A stretch of 64,000 nucleotides of DNA. It comes from Actinomycetota bacterium. GTDB lineage: Bacteria; Actinomycetota; Actinomycetes; S36-B12. The stretch spans positions 103,430-167,429 of the forward strand of contig VGBL01000003.1 in assembly GCA_016870515.1 (NCBI GenBank), written 5' to 3'. The notes under the pieces are model-generated. The model saw nothing but the letters and a program-made list of their open reading frames with translations, was not told the DNA's origin and made no database searches. Below, in pieces: positions 15,519 through 39,760 of this stretch (positions are counted from its first letter, which is position 1; the number at the start of each line of letters is the position of its first letter). The translations under genes were made by a program, and so were the position numbers.

Positions 15519-15527
15519 ACCTTTGCG

Positions 15528-15600
15528 TAGCCCCGACGGGATTCGAACCCGCGCTACCGCCTTGAGAGGGCGGCGTGCTAGGCCGCTACACAACGGGGCC
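15528..15600 (-). tRNA. tRNA-Glu (anticodon CUC)
   Basis: Minus strand GGCCCCGTTGTGTAGCGGCCTAGCACGCCGCCCTCTCAAGGCGGTAGCGCGGGTTCGAATCCCGTCGGGGCTA. It forms a cloverleaf with anticodon loop CU-CUC-AA and T-loop GGTTCGAATCC. CCA is not encoded. Confidence 0.9.
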
Positions 15601-15629
15601 ATGCGCACGCGAGAGAGCACGTGCACTCG

Positions 15630-15701
15630 CTGGGGTACCAGGACTCGAACCTAGACTAACTGAACCAGAATCAGTTGGGCTGCCAATTACCCCATACCCC
15701 A
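15630..15701 (-). tRNA. tRNA-Gln (anticodon CUG)
   Basis: Minus strand TGGGGTATGGGGTAATTGGCAGCCCAACTGATTCTGGTTCAGTTAGTCTAGGTTCGAGTCCTGGTACCCCAG. Anticodon stem ACTGA/TCAGT with loop TT-CTG-GT. Confidence 0.9.
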
Positions 15702-15751: not shown

Positions 15752-17224
15752 CTAGGGGCGACGTGCTGCGGTCAACCGACCCACGGCTCGCTCGCGACCG
15801 AGGATCTCCAGGCTCTCGAAGAGCGGGGGCGACACACGGCGCCCCGTGACAGCGATGCGCACCGCTCCGAACGCCACCTTGGGCTTTAGGCCCAGACCGT
15901 CGATGAGCGCGCCTCGCAGAGCCGCCTGCAGCGACGCCGCATCCCAGGCATCAAGGACGCTCAACGCGTCGAGCGCCGCGACGACGACCTGCTGGGACTG
16001 CTCGTCGGAGATGTCCTGGTCGGGATCGATGGCGAACGCCGGCTCGGCGACGAAGAGGAAGCCGAGCATGCCGACGGCCTGGCCGAGGGTCTCCATGCGC
16101 TCCTGCACGAGCGGCACTGCCTGCATGAGGACGGCCCACTCAGAGTCCGAGATGGGGTCCTGGACGAGGCCGTCGCGCTCGAGGAAGGGCACGATGCGCC
16201 GGCCGATCTCCTCGGCGGGCAGCGAGCGGATCCAGTCCCCGTTGATGGCGGTGCACTTCTTCAGGTCGAAGCGCGCCGGGTTGGGGCTCACGCGCGAGAC
16301 GTCGAAAGCCTCGGCCATCTCGGGCAGGGAGAAGAACTCGCGGTCCTCCCCCATCGACCAGCCCAGTAGGGCCAGGTAGTTGAGCAGCGCCTCGGGCAGG
16401 TAGCCGTTCTCGCGATACATAAGCAGCGAGGACTCCGGATCGCGCTTGGACAGCTTCTTGTTGCCCTGGCCCATGACATAGGGCAGGTGGCCGAAGCGCG
16501 GAGTCCTTCCGTCGCCCACGCCGATCGCCGCGAGGGCCTGATACATCGCGAGCTGACGGGGTGTCGACGAAAGGAGGTCTTCTCCGCGCAACACGTGAGT
16601 GATGCGCATTAGCGCGTCATCGACAGGGTTGACGAGTGTGTAGAGGGGGTCGCCGTTAGCGCGCACGATGACGTAGTCGGGCACGTGCTCGCGACCGAAG
16701 GTCACCTCACCGCGCACGAGGTCGTCCCAGGTCCAGTCCTGCTCCGGCATCGCGAAGCGCGTGACCGAAGTGCGCCCTTCGGCCTCGAACGCCGCGCGCT
16801 GGTCAGGGGTCAGGTGACGGCAGCGCCCGGAATAGCCCTGCGTGCGCCCGGCAGCGCGCGCGGCCTCACGCTCGGCCTCGAGCTCCCCGGCCGTGCAGTA
16901 GCAGGGGTAGGCGTGTCCGGCCTCGACGAGCCTGCGCGCGACATCGGCGGAGATGTCCATGCGCTCGGACTGGCGGTAGGGGCCGTAGGGGCCGCCTACC
17001 TCGGGGCCCTCGTCCCAGTCGAGGCCGAGCCAGCGCAAGGAGTCCAGGAGCGCGATGTAAGAGTCCTCGGAGTCGCGCTCAGCGTCGGTGTCCTCGATGC
17101 GGAAGACGAAGGTGCCGCCGTGGTGGCGGGCGAAGGCCCAGTTGAACAGCGCGGTGCGCACCATGCCGACGTGCGGATTGCCAGTTGGCGAAGGGCAGAA
17201 GCGCACGCGGATATCGCTAGACAC
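15752..17224 (-). CDS. gltX: glutamate--tRNA ligase
   Basis: RVRFCPSPTGNPHVGMVRTALFNW (HIGH-type motif) and KLSKRD (KMSKS). GTG start at 17224. Confidence 0.92.
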   Translation of the reverse strand: MSSDIRVRFCPSPTGNPHVGMVRTALFNWAFARHHGGTFVFRIEDTDAERDSEDSYIALLDSLRWLGLDWDEGPEVGGPYGPYRQSERMDISADVARRLVEAGHAYPCYCTAGELEAEREAARAAGRTQGYSGRCRHLTPDQRAAFEAEGRTSVTRFAMPEQDWTWDDLVRGEVTFGREHVPDYVIVRANGDPLYTLVNPVDDALMRITHVLRGEDLLSSTPRQLAMYQALAAIGVGDGRTPRFGHLPYVMGQGNKKLSKRDPESSLLMYRENGYLPEALLNYLALLGWSMGEDREFFSLPEMAEAFDVSRVSPNPARFDLKKCTAINGDWIRSLPAEEIGRRIVPFLERDGLVQDPISDSEWAVLMQAVPLVQERMETLGQAVGMLGFLFVAEPAFAIDPDQDISDEQSQQVVVAALDALSVLDAWDAASLQAALRGALIDGLGLKPKVAFGAVRIAVTGRRVSPPLFESLEILGRERAVGRLTAARRP

Positions 17225-18786: not shown

Positions 18787-20382
18787 CTAGGCGGGCGACC
18801 CGGAGCGCAGCAGGCTGTAGGCCAGGGCGTCCTCGAGAGCGATCCACGAGGCGGCAATGACGTTTTCGTGTACGCCCACGGTGCTCCAGTCGGCCGCGCC
18901 ATCGGTGGTGCCGATGAGCACGCGGGTGACGGCATCGGTGCCCGCCACTCCCTCGAGGATGCGCACCTTGTAGTCGGTGAGCCGCACCCCCTCGAGTTGT
19001 GGGAAGAGGCGCACGAGGGCACGGCGCAGGGCGCGGTCGAGGGCGTTGACGGGGCCGTTGCCCTCGGCGGTCATGATGACGCGCTCTCCACCGGCGTAGA
19101 CCTTGACGGTCGCCTCGCAGACGACGCTGCCGTCGGCGCGCTGCTCGACGATGGTGCGCCACGACTCCACGGTGTAGGGCTTCGGGCGCCCGCCGGGGCC
19201 CTCGTCGAGCACGAGCAGTTCGAAGGATGCGTCAGCCGCCTCGAAGGTCCACCCCTGTGCCTCGAGGGCCTTCACGCGCTCGACCACGCGCGCCAGGGTG
19301 CCGGGATCGTCGACCAGGTCGAGCCCGAGCTCGCGACCCTTGAGCTCGACCGAGGCACGTCCGGCCATCTCGGTGATAAGGATGCGCTGGTCGTTGCCGA
19401 CGATCGCCGGATCGATGTGGTTGTAGAGCTCGGCGTTCACCTTCAGGGCGCTCGCGTGCAGGCCGGCCTTGTGGGCGAACGACGAGACCCCGGCATAGGG
19501 CTGATGGGTGTCGGGGGCGATGTTGGCAATGGCCGCGATGGCGTGCGAGACCCGCACGGTGTCGCGCAGGTGGCCTTCGGGCAGCACGGACAAGCCGAGC
19601 TTGGTCTCGAGGTTGGCCACGACCGGGAAGAGGTCGGCGTTGCCGGTGCGCTCGCCGTAACCGTTCGCGGTGCACTGCACGTGGGTGACCCCGGCCTCGA
19701 CGGCCGAGAGGGTATTGGCGATGGCACAGCCGGTGTCGTCCTGGCAGTGGATGCCCAGGCGCACGCCGGAGCGCGCGAGGACGTCGGTCACGGCCTCGTA
19801 CATCCCGTGCGGGAGCATGCCGCCGTTGGTGTCGCACATGACTCCGACATCGGCGCCGGCGGAGAAGGCCGCCTCGAGCACGCGGATGCCGTAGTCGGGG
19901 TCGTGCCGGTAGCCGTCGAAGAAATGCTCCATGTCGACGAAGACGCGGCGGTCGTGCTTGCGCAGGAAGCGCACAGTGTCAGCCACCATCGCGAGGTTCT
20001 CCTCGTTGGTGGTCTTCAGCGCCTCGGCCACGTGTCGTACGTCGGACTTCGCGACGATGGTGACCACGGGAGCCTGGGAGTCGAGCAGTGCGCGCACCTG
20101 AGCGTCGTCCTCGACCCTGACACCCGCCTTGCGCGTGGCACCGAAGGCGACCAGCTGCGCAGTCTGCAGGTCGAGCTCCTCGCGCGCACGGGCGAAGAAC
20201 TCCGTGTCCTTGGGCATCGCTCCGGGCCAGCCGCCCTCGATGAAGCCGACGCCATAGCCGTCGAGAAGCCGCGCGACCGCGAGCTTGTCGTTGACGGAGT
20301 AGGCGATGCCCTCGCGCTGGGCTCCGTCGCGCAGCGTCGTGTCGTAGACATGGAAGTCATCCCCCAGGGGCAGGGTGGCCAT
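18787..20382 (-). CDS. cimA: citramalate synthase (LeuA/HCS family, CimA type)
   Basis: MATLPLGDDFHVYDTTLRDGAQREGIAYSVNDKLAVARLLDGYGVGFIEGGWPGAMPKDTEFF... plus a C-terminal LeuA-type regulatory domain. ATG 20382 is preceded by AAGGAGG. The 95-aa track extension is rejected. Confidence 0.75.
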   Translation of the reverse strand: MATLPLGDDFHVYDTTLRDGAQREGIAYSVNDKLAVARLLDGYGVGFIEGGWPGAMPKDTEFFARAREELDLQTAQLVAFGATRKAGVRVEDDAQVRALLDSQAPVVTIVAKSDVRHVAEALKTTNEENLAMVADTVRFLRKHDRRVFVDMEHFFDGYRHDPDYGIRVLEAAFSAGADVGVMCDTNGGMLPHGMYEAVTDVLARSGVRLGIHCQDDTGCAIANTLSAVEAGVTHVQCTANGYGERTGNADLFPVVANLETKLGLSVLPEGHLRDTVRVSHAIAAIANIAPDTHQPYAGVSSFAHKAGLHASALKVNAELYNHIDPAIVGNDQRILITEMAGRASVELKGRELGLDLVDDPGTLARVVERVKALEAQGWTFEAADASFELLVLDEGPGGRPKPYTVESWRTIVEQRADGSVVCEATVKVYAGGERVIMTAEGNGPVNALDRALRRALVRLFPQLEGVRLTDYKVRILEGVAGTDAVTRVLIGTTDGAADWSTVGVHENVIAASWIALEDALAYSLLRSGSPA

Positions 20383-20399
20383 GTCGTCCTCCTTCAAGC

Positions 20400-20427
20400 A
20401 AAAAGCCCCTCGCGGGTGCGAAGGGCT
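20400..20427 (-). terminator. intrinsic terminator / attenuator stem upstream of cimA
   Basis: Minus-strand RNA AGCCCUUCGC-ACCC-GCGAGGGGCU followed by UUUU. The 10-bp stem includes one G-U pair that forms only in this orientation. It lies 12 nt before the cimA SD. Confidence 0.6.
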
Positions 20428-20460
20428 GCGCATCGATGCCGCGGGGCGGCGCCGATGCGC
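20428..20460 (-). promoter_or_regulatory. hairpin 1 of the putative cimA attenuator
   Basis: Outer stem GCGCAUCG/CGAUGCGC (8 bp) and inner stem GCCGC-CCC-GCGGC. The 5' arm starts at the G of the leader stop codon. The inner GCCCCGCGG can alternatively pair with the terminator 3' arm. Confidence 0.45.
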
Positions 20461-20489
20461 TAGGCAATGATGATGCTGGCGTGAAGCAC
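20460..20489 (-). CDS. putative cimA leader peptide MLHASIIIA
   Basis: GTG CTT CAC GCC AGC ATC ATC ATT GCC TAG. TACACT (20501-20496) lies 6 nt upstream of the GTG, the geometry of a leaderless transcript. Confidence 0.45.
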   Translation of the reverse strand: MLHASIIIA

Positions 20490-20593
20490 GGGCCGAGTGT
20501 ACCGGGACCTGACGGGACGCGATAGCCCGGCTTCCGCACGGGCCGAGGAGCCCGCAGGGCCCGCGGGCCGGATCCCGCTCCTGGGGGCCGGGA

Positions 20594-21724
20594 TCAGGAG
20601 TCGATGATCTTGTGCAGCCAGGCGTGCTTGTCGGGCACGGCGCCGGTCTGGATGTCGAGCAGCGCATTGCGCAGCCGCATGGTGACCTCGCCGGCTCCGC
20701 CGTTGCCGACCGTCCAGTTGCCCAGGCGCGACTTCACGAAGCCCACCGGCGTAACGACAGCAGCGGTGCCGCACGCGAAGACCTCCGTGATCTCGCCCGA
20801 CGCGCAGCCGGCCTGCCATTCCTCGACGCTGATCCGGCCCTCGTCGGCGCGGATGCCGAGATCCTGCGCGACCGTCAGGAGGGAGTCGCGCGTGACGCCT
20901 GGCAGGAGTGCGCCGGTCAGGCTCGGCGTCATGATGCGCGCCTGGTCGCCGGAGCCGTAGACGAAGTACAGGTTCATGCCGCCCATCTCCTCGATCCACC
21001 GGTGCTCAGCGGCATCGAGCCAGACGACCTGGTCGCAGCCATGCTGCGCGGCCTCGGCTTGGGCGATGAGGCTCGCGGCGTAGTTGCCGGCGCACTTGGT
21101 CTCGCCGGTGCCGCCGGGAGCGGCGCGGACGTAGTCGTCGGAGAGCCACACGGTGACCGGGTGGATGCCCTTGGCGAAGTAGGCGCCGGCGGGCGAGGCG
21201 ATGAGGAGGAACTGGTAGGTGTTGGACGGCCGTACGCCCAGGCCGATCTCGGTGCCCAGCATGAACGGCCGCAGGTAGAGCGAGGTCTCTCCCCCGCTGG
21301 GCACCCAGTCGCGATCAGCGCTGACGAGCGCGGCGATGGAGCCGATGAAGAGTTCCTCGGGGACCTCGGCCATGGCGAGGCGGCGGGCGGAATTGTTGAA
21401 GCGCGTCGCGTTCTTGAGCGGGCGGTAGAGCCAGATGGACCCGTCGGCATGGCGGTAGGCCTTCATGCCCTCGAAGATCGCCTGGCCGTAGTGCAAGAAG
21501 TTGGTCGCTGGGTCGAAGGTCAGCGGCTGGTATGCGACGAGTTCGGCGTCATGCCAGCCCTCGTCCTCGGTCCAGGTCGCCCGCACCATGTGGTCGGTGT
21601 AGTGCTTGCCGAACCCGGGCTCGGCGAGGATCTCGGCGCGGCGCTCCGGCGACGTGGGGTTGGGATTGGGCTGCGCGACGATCGGCCACAGGTGCGTGTC
21701 GGCGAGCGAGGGCGACGTCGTCAT
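20594..21724 (-). CDS. ilvE: branched-chain amino acid aminotransferase
   Basis: ...FGKHYTDHMV...FHYGQAIFEGMKAY...PGGTGETKCAGNYAASL..., 376 aa of the actinobacterial long type. Confidence 0.9.
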   Translation of the reverse strand: MTTSPSLADTHLWPIVAQPNPNPTSPERRAEILAEPGFGKHYTDHMVRATWTEDEGWHDAELVAYQPLTFDPATNFLHYGQAIFEGMKAYRHADGSIWLYRPLKNATRFNNSARRLAMAEVPEELFIGSIAALVSADRDWVPSGGETSLYLRPFMLGTEIGLGVRPSNTYQFLLIASPAGAYFAKGIHPVTVWLSDDYVRAAPGGTGETKCAGNYAASLIAQAEAAQHGCDQVVWLDAAEHRWIEEMGGMNLYFVYGSGDQARIMTPSLTGALLPGVTRDSLLTVAQDLGIRADEGRISVEEWQAGCASGEITEVFACGTAAVVTPVGFVKSRLGNWTVGNGGAGEVTMRLRNALLDIQTGAVPDKHAWLHKIIDS

Positions 21725-22809: not shown

Positions 22810-27013
<4,204 letters not shown>

Positions 27014-32612: not shown

Positions 32613-32666
32613 CACTCCCTCACTTCACTTCCGCTTCGGTGACCATGGTGGCGCATGGCCCCTGCT

Positions 32667-32693
32667 AACACGAAACCCCCCGGCCCGGGTGGG
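32667..32693 (-). terminator. candidate ilvB attenuator terminator
   Basis: Minus-strand CCC(A)CCC-GGGCC-GGGGGG followed by UUUCGUGUU, 54 nt before the ilvB ATG. Confidence 0.45.
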
Positions 32694-32734
32694 CTCGGAG
32701 GGTGCGCGGGGTCGCCGTGGACGACAGGGGGCGG

Positions 32735-32776
32735 TTATCCCGCGCGCCTGTGTACGACAATGACGATCCGCTGCAT
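32735..32776 (-). CDS. putative ilvB leader peptide MQRIVIVVHRRAG
   Basis: ATG CAG CGG ATC GTC ATT GTC GTA CAC AGG CGC GCG GGA TAA. TATCCT (32788-32783) lies 6 nt upstream of the ATG. Confidence 0.55.
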   Translation of the reverse strand: MQRIVIVVHRRAG

Positions 32777-32867
32777 GGAATGAGGATAGCGGACTCCCGC
32801 CACCGGGTCGACCAGGCCCGCCCCACCCCTCCCCGCGAGGGGCCATAGCCCTTGGCAGGATGCCGTC

Positions 32868-38062: not shown

Positions 38063-39760
38063 TCAGTCGCAGATTGCTCCCCGGGAGGCCGAGCCGACAA
38101 GACGGGCGTATTTGGCGAGCACGCCTCGGTCATAGCGCAGGGGCAGCGGTGTGAAGCCGGCACGACGGCGTGCGAGTTCGTCGTCGTCAACCAGCAGATC
38201 GAGTGTGCGCTCCTTGACATCGATGCGCACGCGATCGCCACTGCGCATGAGACCGATCGGACCGCCATCGACCGCCTCGGGAGAGACGTGCCCGACGCAC
38301 AGTCCGGTCGTGCCGCCGGAGAAGCGGCCGTCGGTGATGAGCAGGACGTCCTTGCCGAGGCCTGCACCCTTGATGGCGCCGGTGATCATCAGCATCTCGC
38401 GCATGCCAGGACCGCCCTTGGGGCCCTCGTAGCGAATAATGATCACGTCACCCGCCTGTATCGTGCCGTCCTCGAGGGCCGCCATGGCCGCCTGCTCGCG
38501 CTCGAAGACTCGGGCAACACCCTCGAACGCCTCGACCGGCACGCCGGCGTTCTTCACCACGGCGCCCTCGGGCGCCAGGGATCCCGACAGGATCGTGATG
38601 CCCCCACTGGCGGCGAGGGCATCGTTGGACGCATGCAGGATCTGGCCGTCCGGATCGGGCGGGTTGATGGCCGCCAGGTTTTCCGCCATCGTCTTGCCGG
38701 TCACCGTGAGGCAGTCGCCGTGAAGCAGGCCGGCGTCGAGGAGTGCGCGCAGCACCACCGGAATGCCGCCCACGCGGTCGACATCGCTCATGACATAGCG
38801 GCCGAAGGGCTTCAGATCAGCAAGCAGCGGCACCTTGGAGCCCACCCGGTGGAAGTCCTCCATCTCGAGAGGCACTCCTGCCTCGTGGGCGATGGCGAGC
38901 AGGTGCAGGACAGCGTTGGTGGAGCCACCGAGCGCCATGACGACGGTGATCGAGTTTTCGAGCGAGTGGCGCGTGATGATGTCGCGCGCGGTGATGCCCT
39001 GGCGGATGAGTTCGACCACGGCCTCGCCGGATCGGCGGGCGTAGCCGTCGCGACGACGATCGACCGCGGGGGGTGCCGATGAGCCGGGCAGCGACATGCC
39101 CATGGCCTCGATGGCGCTGGCCATGGTGTTAGCGGTGTACATGCCGCCGCACGCACCCTCGCCGGGACAGATGGCCCGCTCGATGGTGTCGACGTCCTCG
39201 CGTGACATCAGGCCTCTCGCACATGCGCCAACGGCCTCGAAGGCGTCGATGATGGTGACGTCCTTCTCCGTGCCGTCGCTGAGCTTGACGTGGCCGGGCA
39301 GGATCGACCCGGCGTAGACGAAGACGCTCGCGAGGTTGAGGCGCGCGGCCGCCATGATCATGCCGGGCAGACTCTTATCGCACCCGGCGAAGGTGACCAT
39401 GCCATCGAGGCGCTCGGCCTGCATGACAGCCTCGACCGAGTCGGCGATGATTTCGCGGCTGACCAGCGAGAAGTGCATGCCCTCGTGGCCCATGGAGATG
39501 CCGTCGGAGACCGAGATGGTGCCGAACTGCATGGGAAAGCCGCCGGCCGCGTGCACACCCTCCTTGGCCGCCTTGGCAAGGCGATCCAGCGAGAGGTTGC
39601 AGGGCGTGATCTCGTTCCACGAGGAGGCGATGCCGATCTGCGGCTTGGCGAAGTCCTCGTCGACCATGCCAACGGCGCGGAGCATGCCGCGAGCAGCGGA
39701 ACGCTCGAGACCGTCGGTGACCTCACGGCTGCGGGGTTTCATGTCGGGTGTCTGGGCCAT
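38063..39760 (-). CDS. ilvD: dihydroxy-acid dehydratase
   Basis: ...[17 protein letters not shown]...[15 protein letters not shown]...[16 protein letters not shown]... Confidence 0.95.

What the first reader, a model, noticed from the sequence alone, without database searches (positions are those of the whole stretch)
20400..20501. Putative Ile-sensing attenuator upstream of citramalate synthase: leaderless 9-codon Ile-Ile-Ile leader ORF plus terminator
These elements are read on the minus strand between the ilvE stop (20594) and the cimA ATG (20382). TACACT (20501-20496) lies 6 nt upstream of GTG 20489, the geometry of an actinobacterial -10 box driving a leaderless mRNA. The GTG opens GTG CTT CAC GCC AGC ATC ATC ATT GCC TAG = MLHASIIIA (20489-20460). 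It has three consecutive Ile codons, including the rare ATT, in a genome with strongly GC-biased third positions. The G of the stop codon begins hairpin 1: outer stem GCGCAUCG/CGAUGCGC (20460-20453 / 20435-20428) and inner stem GCCGC-CCC-GCGGC. Hairpin 2 follows immediately: AGCCCUUCGC-ACCC-GCGAGGGGCU plus UUUU (20427-20400). It contains a G-U pair that forms only in the minus-strand RNA, and it ends 12 nt before the cimA SD AAGGAGG. GCCCCGCGG inside hairpin 1 can instead pair with CCGCG(A)GGGGC of the terminator 3' arm (9 bp, one bulge), which is a candidate antiterminator. A ribosome stalled on the Ile codons would cover the 5' arm of hairpin 1 and favour that alternative. Leader-peptide attenuation is established for ilvBNC and leuA in Corynebacterium glutamicum. 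I am not aware of it being described for cimA, the entry step of the pyruvate (citramalate) route to isoleucine.
Basis: partly seen in the sequence, partly recalled or inferred. Interest (0 to 1): 0.65.

Follow-up and report, generated by a model that had tools for sequence, protein, structure and literature searches.

The report
Isoleucine-sensing leader upstream of citramalate synthase
A tiny upstream reading frame with a run of isoleucine codons, followed by two RNA hairpins and a transcription stop signal, sits in front of the citramalate synthase gene in actinobacteria from freshwater plankton to Streptomyces; it most likely switches that isoleucine-pathway gene on when isoleucine runs short, and it is a previously unlisted sibling of a known control element.

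Summary
On the minus strand lie a -10 box, a GTG 6 nt after it, the 9-codon ORF MLHASIIIA, hairpin 1 starting at the G of the TAG, hairpin 2 with a U-run, and then the cimA SD and ATG. The single sequence proves little. The evidence is comparative. The same element lies just upstream of cimA in 75 of 79 related loci that include sequence upstream of cimA, and in 10 of 10 Streptomycetaceae loci. It is there whether or not ilvE is the upstream gene. The conserved parts are an extended -10 placed 6-7 nt before GTG/ATG, an ORF whose only conserved residues are 2-4 Ile (half encoded by the rare ATT), two hairpins with compensatory changes and strand-specific U-G pairs, and a U-tract. A covariance model built from these leaders finds this genome's ilvB leader as its next-best hit, so the cimA leader looks like an Ile-only paralogue of the actinobacterial ilvB leader. 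By geometry, a ribosome stalled at the last Ile codon leaves hairpin 1 intact, and only a ribosome at the stop codon melts it. Verdict: a real Ile-specific leader-peptide attenuator, a new member of a known kind, with the read-through step unresolved.

The parts
20496..20501 (-). -10 promoter hexamer TACACT, 6 nt upstream of the leader start codon
   Evidence: A NAnnnT hexamer lies 6 nt (60 loci) or 7 nt (13 loci) before the leader GTG/ATG in 73 of 76 loci. The consensus is tgTGnCAnnnT, an extended -10, and no -35 is conserved. The same motif occurs in Streptomycetaceae. No transcription start site has been measured.
20460..20489 (-). Leaderless leader ORF GTG CTT CAC GCC AGC ATC ATC ATT GCC TAG (MLHASIIIA)
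   Evidence: An in-frame ORF is present in relatives. Most are 9-11 codons counted through the codon whose third base starts hairpin 1. The N-terminus varies. There is no SD before the GTG.
20466..20474 (-). Regulatory Ile codons ATC ATC ATT
   Evidence: Counting back from the hairpin-1 base codon, Ile occupies position -2 in 65 of 67, -3 in 61 of 67 and -4 in 41 of 67 distinct leader peptides. ATT makes up 78 of 158 leader Ile codons but only 6 of 173 in this window's genes, and the last Ile codon is ATT in 52 of 64.
20428..20460 (-). Hairpin 1. It begins with the G of the TAG stop codon. The GC-rich base GCGC(A/G) is nearly invariant and the upper part covaries.
   Evidence: 7 of 10 pairs show changes on both sides, 95% of cells are paired, and U-G/G-U pairs are present. 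Its length ranges from 24 to about 75 nt across taxa.
20400..20427 (-). Hairpin 2 plus U-run: intrinsic terminator AGCCCUUCGC-ACCC-GCGAGGGGCU-UUUU
   Evidence: It forms in all 75 distinct sequences, and its many 5'U-3'G pairs can only form in this strand's RNA. The linker to hairpin 1 is 0-3 nt. The U-rich tract continues as UUUUUnnUUG.
20388..20394 (-). cimA Shine-Dalgarno AAGGAGG
   Evidence: It lies 5 nt after the U-run and 5 nt before the ATG.
18787..20382 (-). cimA, (R)-citramalate synthase, the regulated gene
   Evidence: TIGR00977 at 602 bits against a cutoff of 450. A separate leuA with its own Leu leader lies elsewhere in the window.

Best explanation
This is an isoleucine-specific, ribosome-mediated transcription attenuator (leader-peptide attenuator) that controls cimA. 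It is a paralogue of the leaderless ilvB leader (ilvL type) of actinobacteria.

Shown by sequence and comparison:
- A conserved extended -10 box places the transcript start at or next to a GTG/ATG, so the short ORF would be translated as a leaderless mRNA.
- The only conserved codons in that ORF are 2-4 Ile codons, and they are enriched for the rare ATT.
- One codon after the last Ile codon, a GC-rich hairpin (hp1) begins. The ORF ends at its base or inside its 5' half.
- A canonical intrinsic terminator (hp2 plus U-tract) follows hp1 within 0-3 nt, and cimA comes next.

Inferred logic:
- When Ile-tRNA is plentiful, the ribosome runs to the stop codon, unwinds hp1 and leaves. hp2 then folds and transcription ends in an RNA of about 90 nt.
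- When Ile-tRNA is scarce, the ribosome waits at the Ile codons, most often at the slowly decoded last one. hp1 stays folded against the ribosome's leading edge, and termination at hp2 is reduced, so cimA is transcribed.

How the stalled state lowers termination is not shown. No antiterminator that shares bases with hp2 can be found. My preferred guess, at about 0.3, is that folded hp1 holds the stalled ribosome within a few nucleotides of the 5' arm of hp2 and so hinders completion of the terminator stem in the RNA exit channel of the polymerase. hp1 probably also pauses the polymerase so that translation and transcription stay in step.
For: Distribution and linkage. A covariance model gives exactly one hit per locus, always on the cimA strand and just upstream of cimA, in 79 of 84 loci. 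No other hit appears in 553 kb. Ten Streptomycetaceae loci that were not used to build the model hit at E = 3e-10 to 2.6e-6. The element stays with cimA in 25 loci where ilvE is not adjacent and in Streptomyces clavuligerus, where the upstream gene encodes an MFS transporter.

Leaderless start. A -10 box lies 6-7 nt before GTG/ATG in 73 of 76 loci. Mycobacterial leaderless mRNAs start with a 5' AUG or GUG (abstract of 10.1101/834739, shown).

Codons. Ile is the only conserved residue. The rare ATT is about 14-fold enriched over the window's genes.

Structure. 91.7% of cells are paired, 10 pairs have changes on both sides, none of 500 shuffles reaches the observed value on any of five measures, and the slid controls are far lower. 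The U-G pairs are strand-specific.

Kinship with ilvL. The model's next-best hit in the window is this genome's ilvB leader (32665-32777, minus strand), matched over the full model at 18.5 bits and a rough E-value of 0.008. That leader, MQRIVIVVHRRAG, has the same spacing between its last regulatory codon and hp1. Leaders whose ORF runs into hp1 end in ...IIIGKRVGV, which resembles Streptomyces lividans IlvL, MRTRILVLGKRVG (PMC8079986).

Logic. The same ribosome logic has been proposed for the Mycobacterium tuberculosis ilvB1 attenuator: stalling at the regulatory codons leaves an upstream hairpin formed, and a ribosome at the stop codon masks it. That work also reports a terminated leader RNA of about 120 nt and ribosome footprints on the uORF (PMC13236596).

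Gene context. This genome also carries typical ilvB and leuA leaderless leaders.
Against: There are no expression data of any kind for this element: no TSS, no 3' ends, no response to Ile.

The defining alternative structure of a classical attenuator is missing. hp2 stays in the MFE under every ribosome mask tested. No pair of regions other than hp1 and hp2 is more complementary than shuffled controls. The step from stalling to read-through is therefore conjecture.

In Streptomyces coelicolor, mutating the candidate regulatory codons of the related ilvB leader had no effect on regulation (cited in PMC1262725). Members of this architecture may therefore not work by simple codon sensing.

The ilvB match has a rough E-value, because the model was only briefly calibrated. 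Part of the similarity is GC-rich stem plus terminator, so convergence cannot be excluded.

Four low-GC relatives lack the element altogether.
Confidence: 0.72

Rival explanations
1. A classical attenuator. The stalled ribosome covers the 5' arm of hairpin 1, and the freed inner or 3' part of hairpin 1 pairs with the 3' arm of the terminator as an antiterminator.
For: The 9-bp pairing with one bulge exists in the window and its closest relatives. The hairpin-1 loop against the terminator 3' arm is slightly better than shuffled: -0.94 kcal/mol on average, better in 67% of sequences.
Against: The pairing is -14.3 kcal/mol even with the terminator 5' arm forced open, against -25.6 for the fold that keeps the terminator. 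It never appears under any masking. The C-rich apical part of hairpin 1 is absent in most relatives, whose loops are 2-7 nt of variable sequence. By geometry, hairpin 1 sits at +12 to +15 from the P site of a ribosome stalled on the last Ile codon, so its 5' arm is not covered.
Confidence: 0.06
2. Hairpin 2 is simply the constitutive terminator of the upstream leuB-ilvE transcript, and the mini-ORF is a chance open frame in GC-rich DNA.
For: No other terminator lies between ilvE and cimA. The mini-ORF is the tail of a 179-codon open frame. The Ile run is not significant within the window alone.
Against: The element follows cimA, not ilvE. It is present in 25 loci where ilvE is separated or absent and after an MFS transporter gene in Streptomyces. 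The promoter, start codon, reading frame, Ile codons and stop position are conserved between Nanopelagicales-like genomes and Streptomycetaceae. A fully constitutive terminator would leave cimA poorly expressed. Hairpin 2 may still also end ilvE read-through transcripts; the two roles are compatible.
Confidence: 0.05
3. The unit is an independent small gene, coding for a micropeptide or for a roughly 90-nt small RNA that acts in trans, and does not control cimA in cis.
For: It has its own promoter and terminator. Attenuator-derived RNAs and leader peptides with trans functions are known in Sinorhizobium (rnTrpL and peTrpL; abstracts).
Against: It is strictly placed in front of cimA in every locus. 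The peptide varies except for the Ile residues and is only 8-10 residues long in most relatives. The codon-level signature (rare ATT, fixed spacing to hairpin 1) points to decoding speed, not to a peptide product. A trans role on top of cis control is not excluded.
Confidence: 0.07
4. Termination at hairpin 2 is controlled by a trans-acting factor, such as an RNA-binding protein that recognises the invariant GCGCG/CGCGC base of hairpin 1 or the conserved CGC-ACCC-GCG apex of hairpin 2. The ORF would be incidental or secondary.
For: No RNA antiterminator can be found. Sequence, not just pairing, is invariant at the base of hairpin 1 and at the apex of hairpin 2 from freshwater clades to Streptomyces. 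Codon mutations had no effect in the Streptomyces coelicolor ilvB leader (PMC1262725).
Against: This does not explain the conserved leaderless start, the reading frame, the Ile-only conservation, the rare-codon bias, or the rule that the ORF ends at or inside hairpin 1. A DNA operator is unlikely because the half-site distance varies from about 14 to about 65 nt and the stems contain G-U pairs. No candidate factor is known.
Confidence: 0.1

Closest known systems
Actinobacterial ilvB (ilvBNC/ilvBHC) leaderless leader-peptide attenuator: ilvL of Streptomyces, Mycobacterium ilvB1 uORF, and the ilvB leader of this same genome at 32665-32788 (minus strand)
   Same: Both have a leaderless short ORF starting 6-7 nt after a -10 box. 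The regulatory branched-chain codons include rare ones and end one codon before a GC-rich hairpin. The ORF ends at or inside that hairpin, and an intrinsic terminator with an ACCC loop and a U-tract follows directly. The cimA-leader covariance model hits this genome's ilvB leader over its full length. The peptide tails are similar...GKRVG(V) against IlvL ...GKRVG. As noted for actinobacterial leaders in PMC1262725, components of a classical attenuator are missing.
   Different: The cimA leader precedes cimA, not ilvB. Its regulatory run is Ile only (II to IIII) rather than a mix of Ile, Val and Leu, so it should report one amino acid. In most freshwater relatives the ORF stops exactly at the base of the hairpin, at a TAG.
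Classical enterobacterial leader-peptide attenuators (trp, his, leu, thr, ilvGMEDA, ilvBN)
   Same: A short upstream ORF is rich in codons for the pathway's end product, rare codons are used, an intrinsic terminator precedes the structural gene, and the ribosome's position is the sensor.
   Different: Those leaders have an SD-led ORF and four or more segments with a demonstrable 2:3 antiterminator that shares bases with the terminator, and the stalled ribosome masks segment 1. Here the mRNA is leaderless, there are only two non-overlapping hairpins, and the stalled ribosome leaves the first hairpin intact.
Corynebacterium ilvB-II motif / C. glutamicum ilvBNC three-hairpin attenuator (PMC10272879, PMC11857589)
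   Same: Actinobacterial, uORF-based and sensitive to branched-chain amino acids, with a start codon at or next to the 5' end of the transcript.
   Different: Three hairpins are proposed there, with overlapping terminator and antiterminator. No such overlap is detectable here.
Polycysteine leaderless short ORFs of mycobacteria (10.1101/834739)
   Same: A leaderless short ORF with a run of a single amino acid's codons, upstream of genes for that amino acid's synthesis.
   Different: I did not read this paper beyond its abstract. Seliverstov et al. found candidate cys leader peptides in Mycobacterium without obvious terminators (PMC1262725), whereas here a canonical terminator is the best-conserved part.

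Membership tests
Ribosome-mediated (leader-peptide) transcription attenuator | Short ORF upstream of a biosynthetic gene, enriched in codons for the pathway's end product | tested here: met
   The ORF is mostly 9-11 codons through the hairpin-1 base codon. Ile occupies positions -2, -3 and -4 in 65, 61 and 41 of 67 distinct leaders, and no other residue is conserved. cimA is the first step of the citramalate route to Ile (established pathway knowledge).
Ribosome-mediated (leader-peptide) transcription attenuator | The leader ORF is actually translated (has an initiation signal) | tested here: inconclusive
   The conserved -10 box 6-7 nt before GTG/ATG in 73 of 76 loci fits leaderless initiation. 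No TSS or ribosome-profiling data were available.
Ribosome-mediated (leader-peptide) transcription attenuator | Intrinsic terminator between the leader ORF and the structural gene | tested here: met
   Hairpin 2 plus U-tract is found by the terminator scan. It is present in all 75 distinct relatives and in Streptomycetaceae, with covariation and strand-specific U-G pairs.
Ribosome-mediated (leader-peptide) transcription attenuator | Antiterminator structure mutually exclusive with the terminator | tested here: not met
   Masked folding of the 15 representative leaders tested (11 including the window, 4 Streptomycetaceae), constrained folding of the window's leader and duplex energies against shuffled controls in all 75 distinct leaders show no competing pairing. 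Only thermodynamic and complementarity tests were run, so a kinetic or steric equivalent is not excluded.
Ribosome-mediated (leader-peptide) transcription attenuator | Read-through responds to the supply of the cognate charged tRNA | not testable with these tools
   This needs reporter, Term-seq or in vitro coupled assays.
Actinobacterial ilvL-type leaderless attenuator | Architecture: leaderless ORF, regulatory codons one codon before a GC-rich hairpin that contains the ORF end, and an adjacent terminator | tested here: met
   The window's ilvB leader has the same layout and the same +12 spacing. Model R1 hits it over its full length at 18.5 bits with a rough E-value of 0.008, the second-best hit in 128 kb searched.
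Actinobacterial ilvL-type leaderless attenuator | Located upstream of ilvB, with mixed Ile/Val/Leu regulatory codons | tested here: not met
   The element lies upstream of cimA in all 89 loci that carry it, and its regulatory run is Ile only. I therefore file it as a paralogous new member, not as an ilvL.
T-box riboswitch or any other Rfam family | Match to a curated covariance model | tested here: not met
   The permissive scan gave nothing below E = 7, and only two tRNAs reached gathering score in the whole window.

The most novel reading that the evidence does not exclude
An attenuator with no RNA antiterminator. Hairpin 1 would act as a spacer-collapsing device: when folded, it holds a ribosome stalled at the last Ile codon within 0-3 nt of the terminator's 5' arm. 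The ribosome, or the abutting helix itself, would then sterically prevent completion of the terminator stem in the polymerase's RNA exit channel. A ribosome that reaches the stop codon unzips hairpin 1, restores a flexible linker and allows termination. If this is right, it would be a distinct mechanistic class, shared with the ilvB leaders of high-GC actinobacteria, and it would explain why attenuator components have seemed to be missing there since 2005.
Probability: 0.2. Interest if true: 0.8.

Novelty: new member of a known kind. Interest (0 to 1): 0.5.

Why it matters
It gives the citramalate route to isoleucine its own dedicated sensor in actinobacteria, alongside the multivalent ilvB leader and the Leu-specific leuA leader encoded in the same 64-kb window. 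The element spans groups as distant as uncultured freshwater Nanopelagicales-like plankton and Streptomycetaceae, which include culturable, genetically tractable strains, so it can be tested directly. It matches no Rfam family and could seed a new one. Because cimA is a target in metabolic engineering of Ile and of 2-oxobutyrate-derived products, knowing that a terminator sits in front of it has practical use. The cimA and ilvB leaders form a natural paralogous pair for asking how a two-hairpin leader with no visible antiterminator turns ribosome stalling into read-through. That question has been open for actinobacterial ilvB leaders since Seliverstov et al. 2005.

Tried and rejected
- Rfam. 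A permissive scan of the region and a gathering-threshold scan of the whole window found no family.
- Antiterminator search. I masked 0-12 nt of the hairpin-1 5' arm in 11 diverse leaders. I placed ribosomes by a 26-nt occlusion and by P+12/P+15 edges at the last Ile codon and at the stop codon, for the window's cimA leader, its ilvB leader and four Streptomycetaceae leaders. I forced the terminator 5' arm open. I compared duplex energies for 17 region pairs with shuffled controls. Nothing competes with hairpin 2.
- The conserved TTG/ATG just after the U-tract as an alternative cimA start. It is in frame about as often as chance predicts, and every locus has its own SD and ATG further on. I read it as the distal part of the U-rich tract.
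- A DNA palindrome or operator reading of hairpin 1. Rejected because of the G-U pairs and the variable arm distance.
- The ilvE-terminator-only reading. Rejected on synteny.
- The second ATYATYATY site in the window (38435-38443). It lies inside the ilvD coding sequence.
- Pairing of the leader 5' end with the cimA SD, seen in the window's MFE. The 5' sequences differ among close relatives, so I did not pursue it.
- Reaching distant taxa. Two protein searches returned only the same environmental clade. A profile built from 50%-identity representatives finally reached Streptomycetaceae. Other orders (Mycobacteriales, Micrococcales and so on) were not sampled.
- Literature. No paper in the held library links cimA or SCO5529 to a leader peptide or prints these peptides.
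Full report
**1. What is in the sequence**

Read on the minus strand, the 211-nt spacer between the ilvE stop (20596-20594) and the cimA ATG (20382-20380) contains the following, in order:
- TACACT (20501-20496), then six bases, then GTG (20489-20487).
- The ORF GTG CTT CAC GCC AGC ATC ATC ATT GCC TAG (20489-20460), MLHASIIIA.
- Hairpin 1 (hp1, 20460-20428), whose first paired base is the G of the TAG.
- Hairpin 2 (hp2, 20427-20404), directly after hp1, followed by a run of five U (20404-20400).
- The SD AAGGAGG (20394-20388).

The gene identities hold. The downstream gene is citramalate synthase (TIGR00977, 602 bits against a cutoff of 450). The upstream genes are ilvE and leuB. RNAfold returns both hairpins (-59.2 kcal/mol, z = -5.0). 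hp2 is the only terminator-like site in 600 nt. The one factual slip in the finding is that the U-run ends 5 nt, not 12 nt, before the SD.

Taken alone, the window proves little. ATYATYATY occurs twice against 0.89 expected. The mini-ORF is also the tail of a long open frame, as often happens in DNA of 68.5% G+C.

**2. Comparative evidence**

A scan of one genome per species returned 80 loci whose CimA is 72-94% identical. All are metagenome-assembled actinobacteria, many labelled Nanopelagicales. Of these, 79 include sequence upstream of cimA, and 75 of those carry the same element directly upstream of cimA. The four that lack it are low-GC genomes with an ilvE-cimA spacer of only 66-73 nt.

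*Promoter.* In 73 of 76 sequences (75 loci plus the window), a NAnnnT hexamer lies 6 nt (60 cases) or 7 nt (13 cases) before an in-frame GTG (62) or ATG (11). The upstream consensus is tgTGnCAnnnT, an extended -10, and no -35 is conserved. This is the geometry of a leaderless mRNA. No SD precedes the start codon.

*Leader ORF.* Most ORFs are 9-11 codons, counted through the codon whose third base starts hp1. The N-terminus varies. Ile is the only conserved residue: 65, 61 and 41 of 67 distinct leaders have Ile at the last three positions before a variable spacer codon.

*Codon choice.* Half of these Ile codons are ATT (78 ATT, 80 ATC). The window's own genes use ATC 162 times and ATT 6 times. 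The last Ile codon is ATT in 52 of 64 leaders.

*Stop position.* In 50 of 64 leaders, the codon whose third base opens hp1 is TAG. TAG is the only stop codon that ends in G. In the rest it is a sense codon (AAG, AGG, GGG, GAG), the ORF runs into the 5' arm of an enlarged hp1, and it stops at a TGA or TAA in the loop. The distance from the last Ile codon to hp1 is unchanged.

*Structure.* Both hairpins form in all 75 distinct sequences, with 0-3 nt between them. On the alignment, 91.7% of cells pair and ten pairs change on both sides. None of 500 shuffles reaches the observed value on any of five measures, and sliding the partners by 1-3 columns drops pairing to 37-55%. hp2 carries about a hundred 5'U-3'G cells, and hp1 carries G-U pairs as well. 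On the other strand, or in duplex DNA, these would be mismatches.

**3. The element belongs to cimA, not to ilvE**

It sits in front of cimA in 25 loci where ilvE is separated by another gene or is absent from the upstream flank. A covariance model built from the alignment (R1) finds exactly one hit per locus. Every hit is on the cimA strand and next to cimA, and nothing else appears in 553 kb.

**4. Range**

Two protein searches stayed inside the same environmental clade. A profile of 50%-identity representatives then reached Streptomycetaceae CimA. I fetched ten loci: Streptomyces clavuligerus, a locus encoding the CimA named for S. bingchenggensis, Peterkaempfera bronchialis, Yinghuangia seranimata and other Streptomyces. 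None was used to build R1. All hit R1 over its full length at E = 3e-10 to 2.6e-6.

These loci show the same design:
- The same tgTGnnAnnnT box 6-7 nt before GTG/ATG.
- Leaders such as MPAFVMIIDSRRAGPQ, MLSFAMIIGSRRAGPQ and MQQWLIISRGVPATG.
- An hp1 of about 70 nt with the same GCGCGC base, or GCACGC/GCGUGC, which is a compensatory change.
- A stop codon inside the 5' half of hp1.
- hp2 GACCUCUCGC-ACCC-GCGAGGGGUC followed by a U-tract.

In S. clavuligerus and several other Streptomyces the upstream gene encodes an MFS transporter.

**5. Kinship with the ilvB leader**

The window also encodes ilvB, ilvC, serA, ilvD and leuA.

Upstream of ilvB (minus strand) lies TATCCT, then 6 nt, then ATG CAG CGG ATC GTC ATT GTC GTA CAC AGG CGC GCG GGA TAA (MQRIVIVVHRRAG). 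A hairpin starts at the G of AGG, and a terminator with an ACCC loop and a U-tract follows. The last regulatory codon is the rare GTA. One codon separates it from the codon that opens the hairpin, exactly as in the cimA leader.

R1's second-best hit in the window, over the full model, is this ilvB leader (18.5 bits, rough E = 0.008). The cimA leaders whose ORF runs into hp1 end in ...IIIGKRVGV, close to Streptomyces lividans IlvL, MRTRILVLGKRVG (PMC8079986).

I therefore read the cimA leader as an Ile-only paralogue of the ilvL-type attenuator. Convergence driven by the shared GC-rich stem cannot be fully excluded.

leuA has its own leaderless leader, [14 protein letters not shown].

**6. Mechanism: what holds and what does not**

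It uses the apical extension of hp1, which only the closest relatives have. It is worth -14.3 kcal/mol even with the terminator 5' arm forced open, against -25.6 for the fold that keeps the terminator. It never appears when 0-12 nt of hp1 are masked or when a ribosome is placed at the last Ile codon or at the stop.

The absence is general. Across 75 leaders, duplex energies for 15 other region pairs are indistinguishable from shuffled controls. Only hp1 (-10.6 kcal/mol better than control) and hp2 (-8.5) stand out. The window's ilvB leader and the Streptomycetaceae leaders behave the same way.

With the last Ile codon in the A site, the base of hp1 lies at +12 from the first P-site nucleotide (+14/+15 in Streptomycetaceae). 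From established knowledge of ribosome footprints and helicase position, that is at the entrance of the mRNA channel. A ribosome waiting for Ile-tRNA therefore leaves hp1 folded. A ribosome at the stop codon has unwound at least 6-7 of its pairs.

This is the logic proposed for the Mycobacterium tuberculosis ilvB1 attenuator. There, stalling lets an upstream hairpin form and a ribosome at the stop codon masks it. That work also reports a terminated leader RNA and ribosome footprints on the uORF (PMC13236596). In that model the upstream hairpin and the terminator share bases. Here they do not.

I therefore commit to two statements with different confidence:
- About 0.7: this is an Ile-sensing leader-peptide attenuator in which hp1 is the ribosome-sensitive element.
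- About 0.3, and inferred only: folded hp1 holds the stalled ribosome within a few nucleotides of the 5' arm of hp2 and hinders completion of the terminator stem.

The features that fit the second statement are the fixed short distances on both sides of hp1, the free variation of hp1 length, its invariant GC-rich base, and the rule that the ORF always ends at or inside hp1.

A caution: codon substitutions in the S. coelicolor ilvB leader reportedly did not change regulation (cited in PMC1262725).

**7. Rivals**

- hp2 as a constitutive ilvE terminator with a chance ORF fails on synteny and on conservation of the ORF and promoter.
- An independent micropeptide or small-RNA gene fails on the strict position before cimA and on the variability of the peptide, although a trans role on top of cis control is not excluded.
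- A trans-acting factor that binds the invariant stem bases cannot be excluded. It leaves the coding signature unexplained.
- A DNA operator is unlikely because of the G-U pairs and because the arm spacing varies from about 14 to about 65 nt.

**8. Novelty and score**

Rfam has no matching family. Seliverstov et al. 2005 list ilvB, leuA, trp, cys and T-box elements in Actinobacteria, but nothing for cimA. The S. lividans TK24 re-annotation lists eight leader peptides, none for cimA. Full-text searches for cimA or citramalate synthase together with leader peptide, for SCO5529, and for the peptides themselves found nothing relevant. The library is incomplete, so prior mention elsewhere remains possible.

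The kind of element is well known, so I class this as a new member of a known kind and score interest at 0.5. It is real and widespread, it matches no Rfam family, I found no paper describing it, and it can be tested in Streptomyces. It also sharpens an old question: how do these two-hairpin actinobacterial leaders work without a visible antiterminator?

Noticed in passing
window 32665-32788 (minus strand): A leaderless ilvB leader: TATCCT (32788-32783), 6 nt, then ATG at 32776, encoding MQRIVIVVHRRAG (stop 32737-32735). A large hairpin and a terminator CCCUCCGAGCCC-ACCC-GGGCCGGGGGG-UUUCGUGUU follow. It has the same two-hairpin layout as the cimA leader, the same codon-to-hairpin spacing, and likewise no detectable antiterminator.
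   Followed up: partly
window 23523-23580 (plus strand): A leaderless leuA leader: TACCCT, 7 nt, then ATG at 23536, encoding [14 protein letters not shown] (TAG 23578-23580). It lies about 90 nt upstream of the likely leuA start (ATG near 23671). It resembles Streptomyces lividans LeuL1, MRFGLLLLSCRGEGL.
   Followed up: no
L067, L072, L076, L077 (upstream of cimA): Four lower-GC Nanopelagicales-type genomes have only 66-73 nt between ilvE and cimA. They have no leader ORF, no hairpins and no terminator, which looks like loss of the attenuator in streamlined genomes.
   Followed up: partly
window 20570-20595 (minus strand): An inverted repeat GAUCCCG...CGGGAUC overlaps the ilvE stop codon, and GC-rich palindromes (GGCCCGCGGGCC) follow. 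None has a U-tract. Transcripts from ilvE may therefore run into the cimA leader and end at hairpin 2.
   Followed up: no
window 38435-38443 (minus strand): The only other ATYATYATY in the window lies inside a coding sequence with the dihydroxy-acid dehydratase motif [19 protein letters not shown]. ilvD (ORF 38063-39760, minus strand) is therefore also in this window.
   Followed up: partly
window 15527-15701 (minus strand): tRNA-Glu(CUC) and tRNA-Gln(CUG) genes lie immediately downstream of gltX (glutamate--tRNA ligase, 15752-17224).
   Followed up: no
L063 and L052, about 100-230 nt upstream of cimA; L053, between the terminator and cimA: There are short tandem repeats: GGTTCCACGCGGGGAGGTTCGC units before the leader promoter in L063, related AGCAAGTTCGCG units in L052, and CCAGCCAGCCCG units in the 5' UTR of L053. 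Their function is unknown.
   Followed up: no
titles of L008, L010, L012, L021, L077: Several freshwater metagenome-assembled genomes that carry this actinobacterial locus are titled 'Bifidobacterium breve' in the public records. This looks like a taxonomic mislabel.
   Followed up: no
hairpin 2 apex, window 20411-20420, and all related loci: The apex CGC-ACCC-GCG of the terminator is conserved in sequence in most of the freshwater loci and most of the Streptomycetaceae loci. Many hairpin-1 loops and the ilvB terminator loop are also ACCC. I have no explanation for the conserved loop sequence.
   Followed up: no
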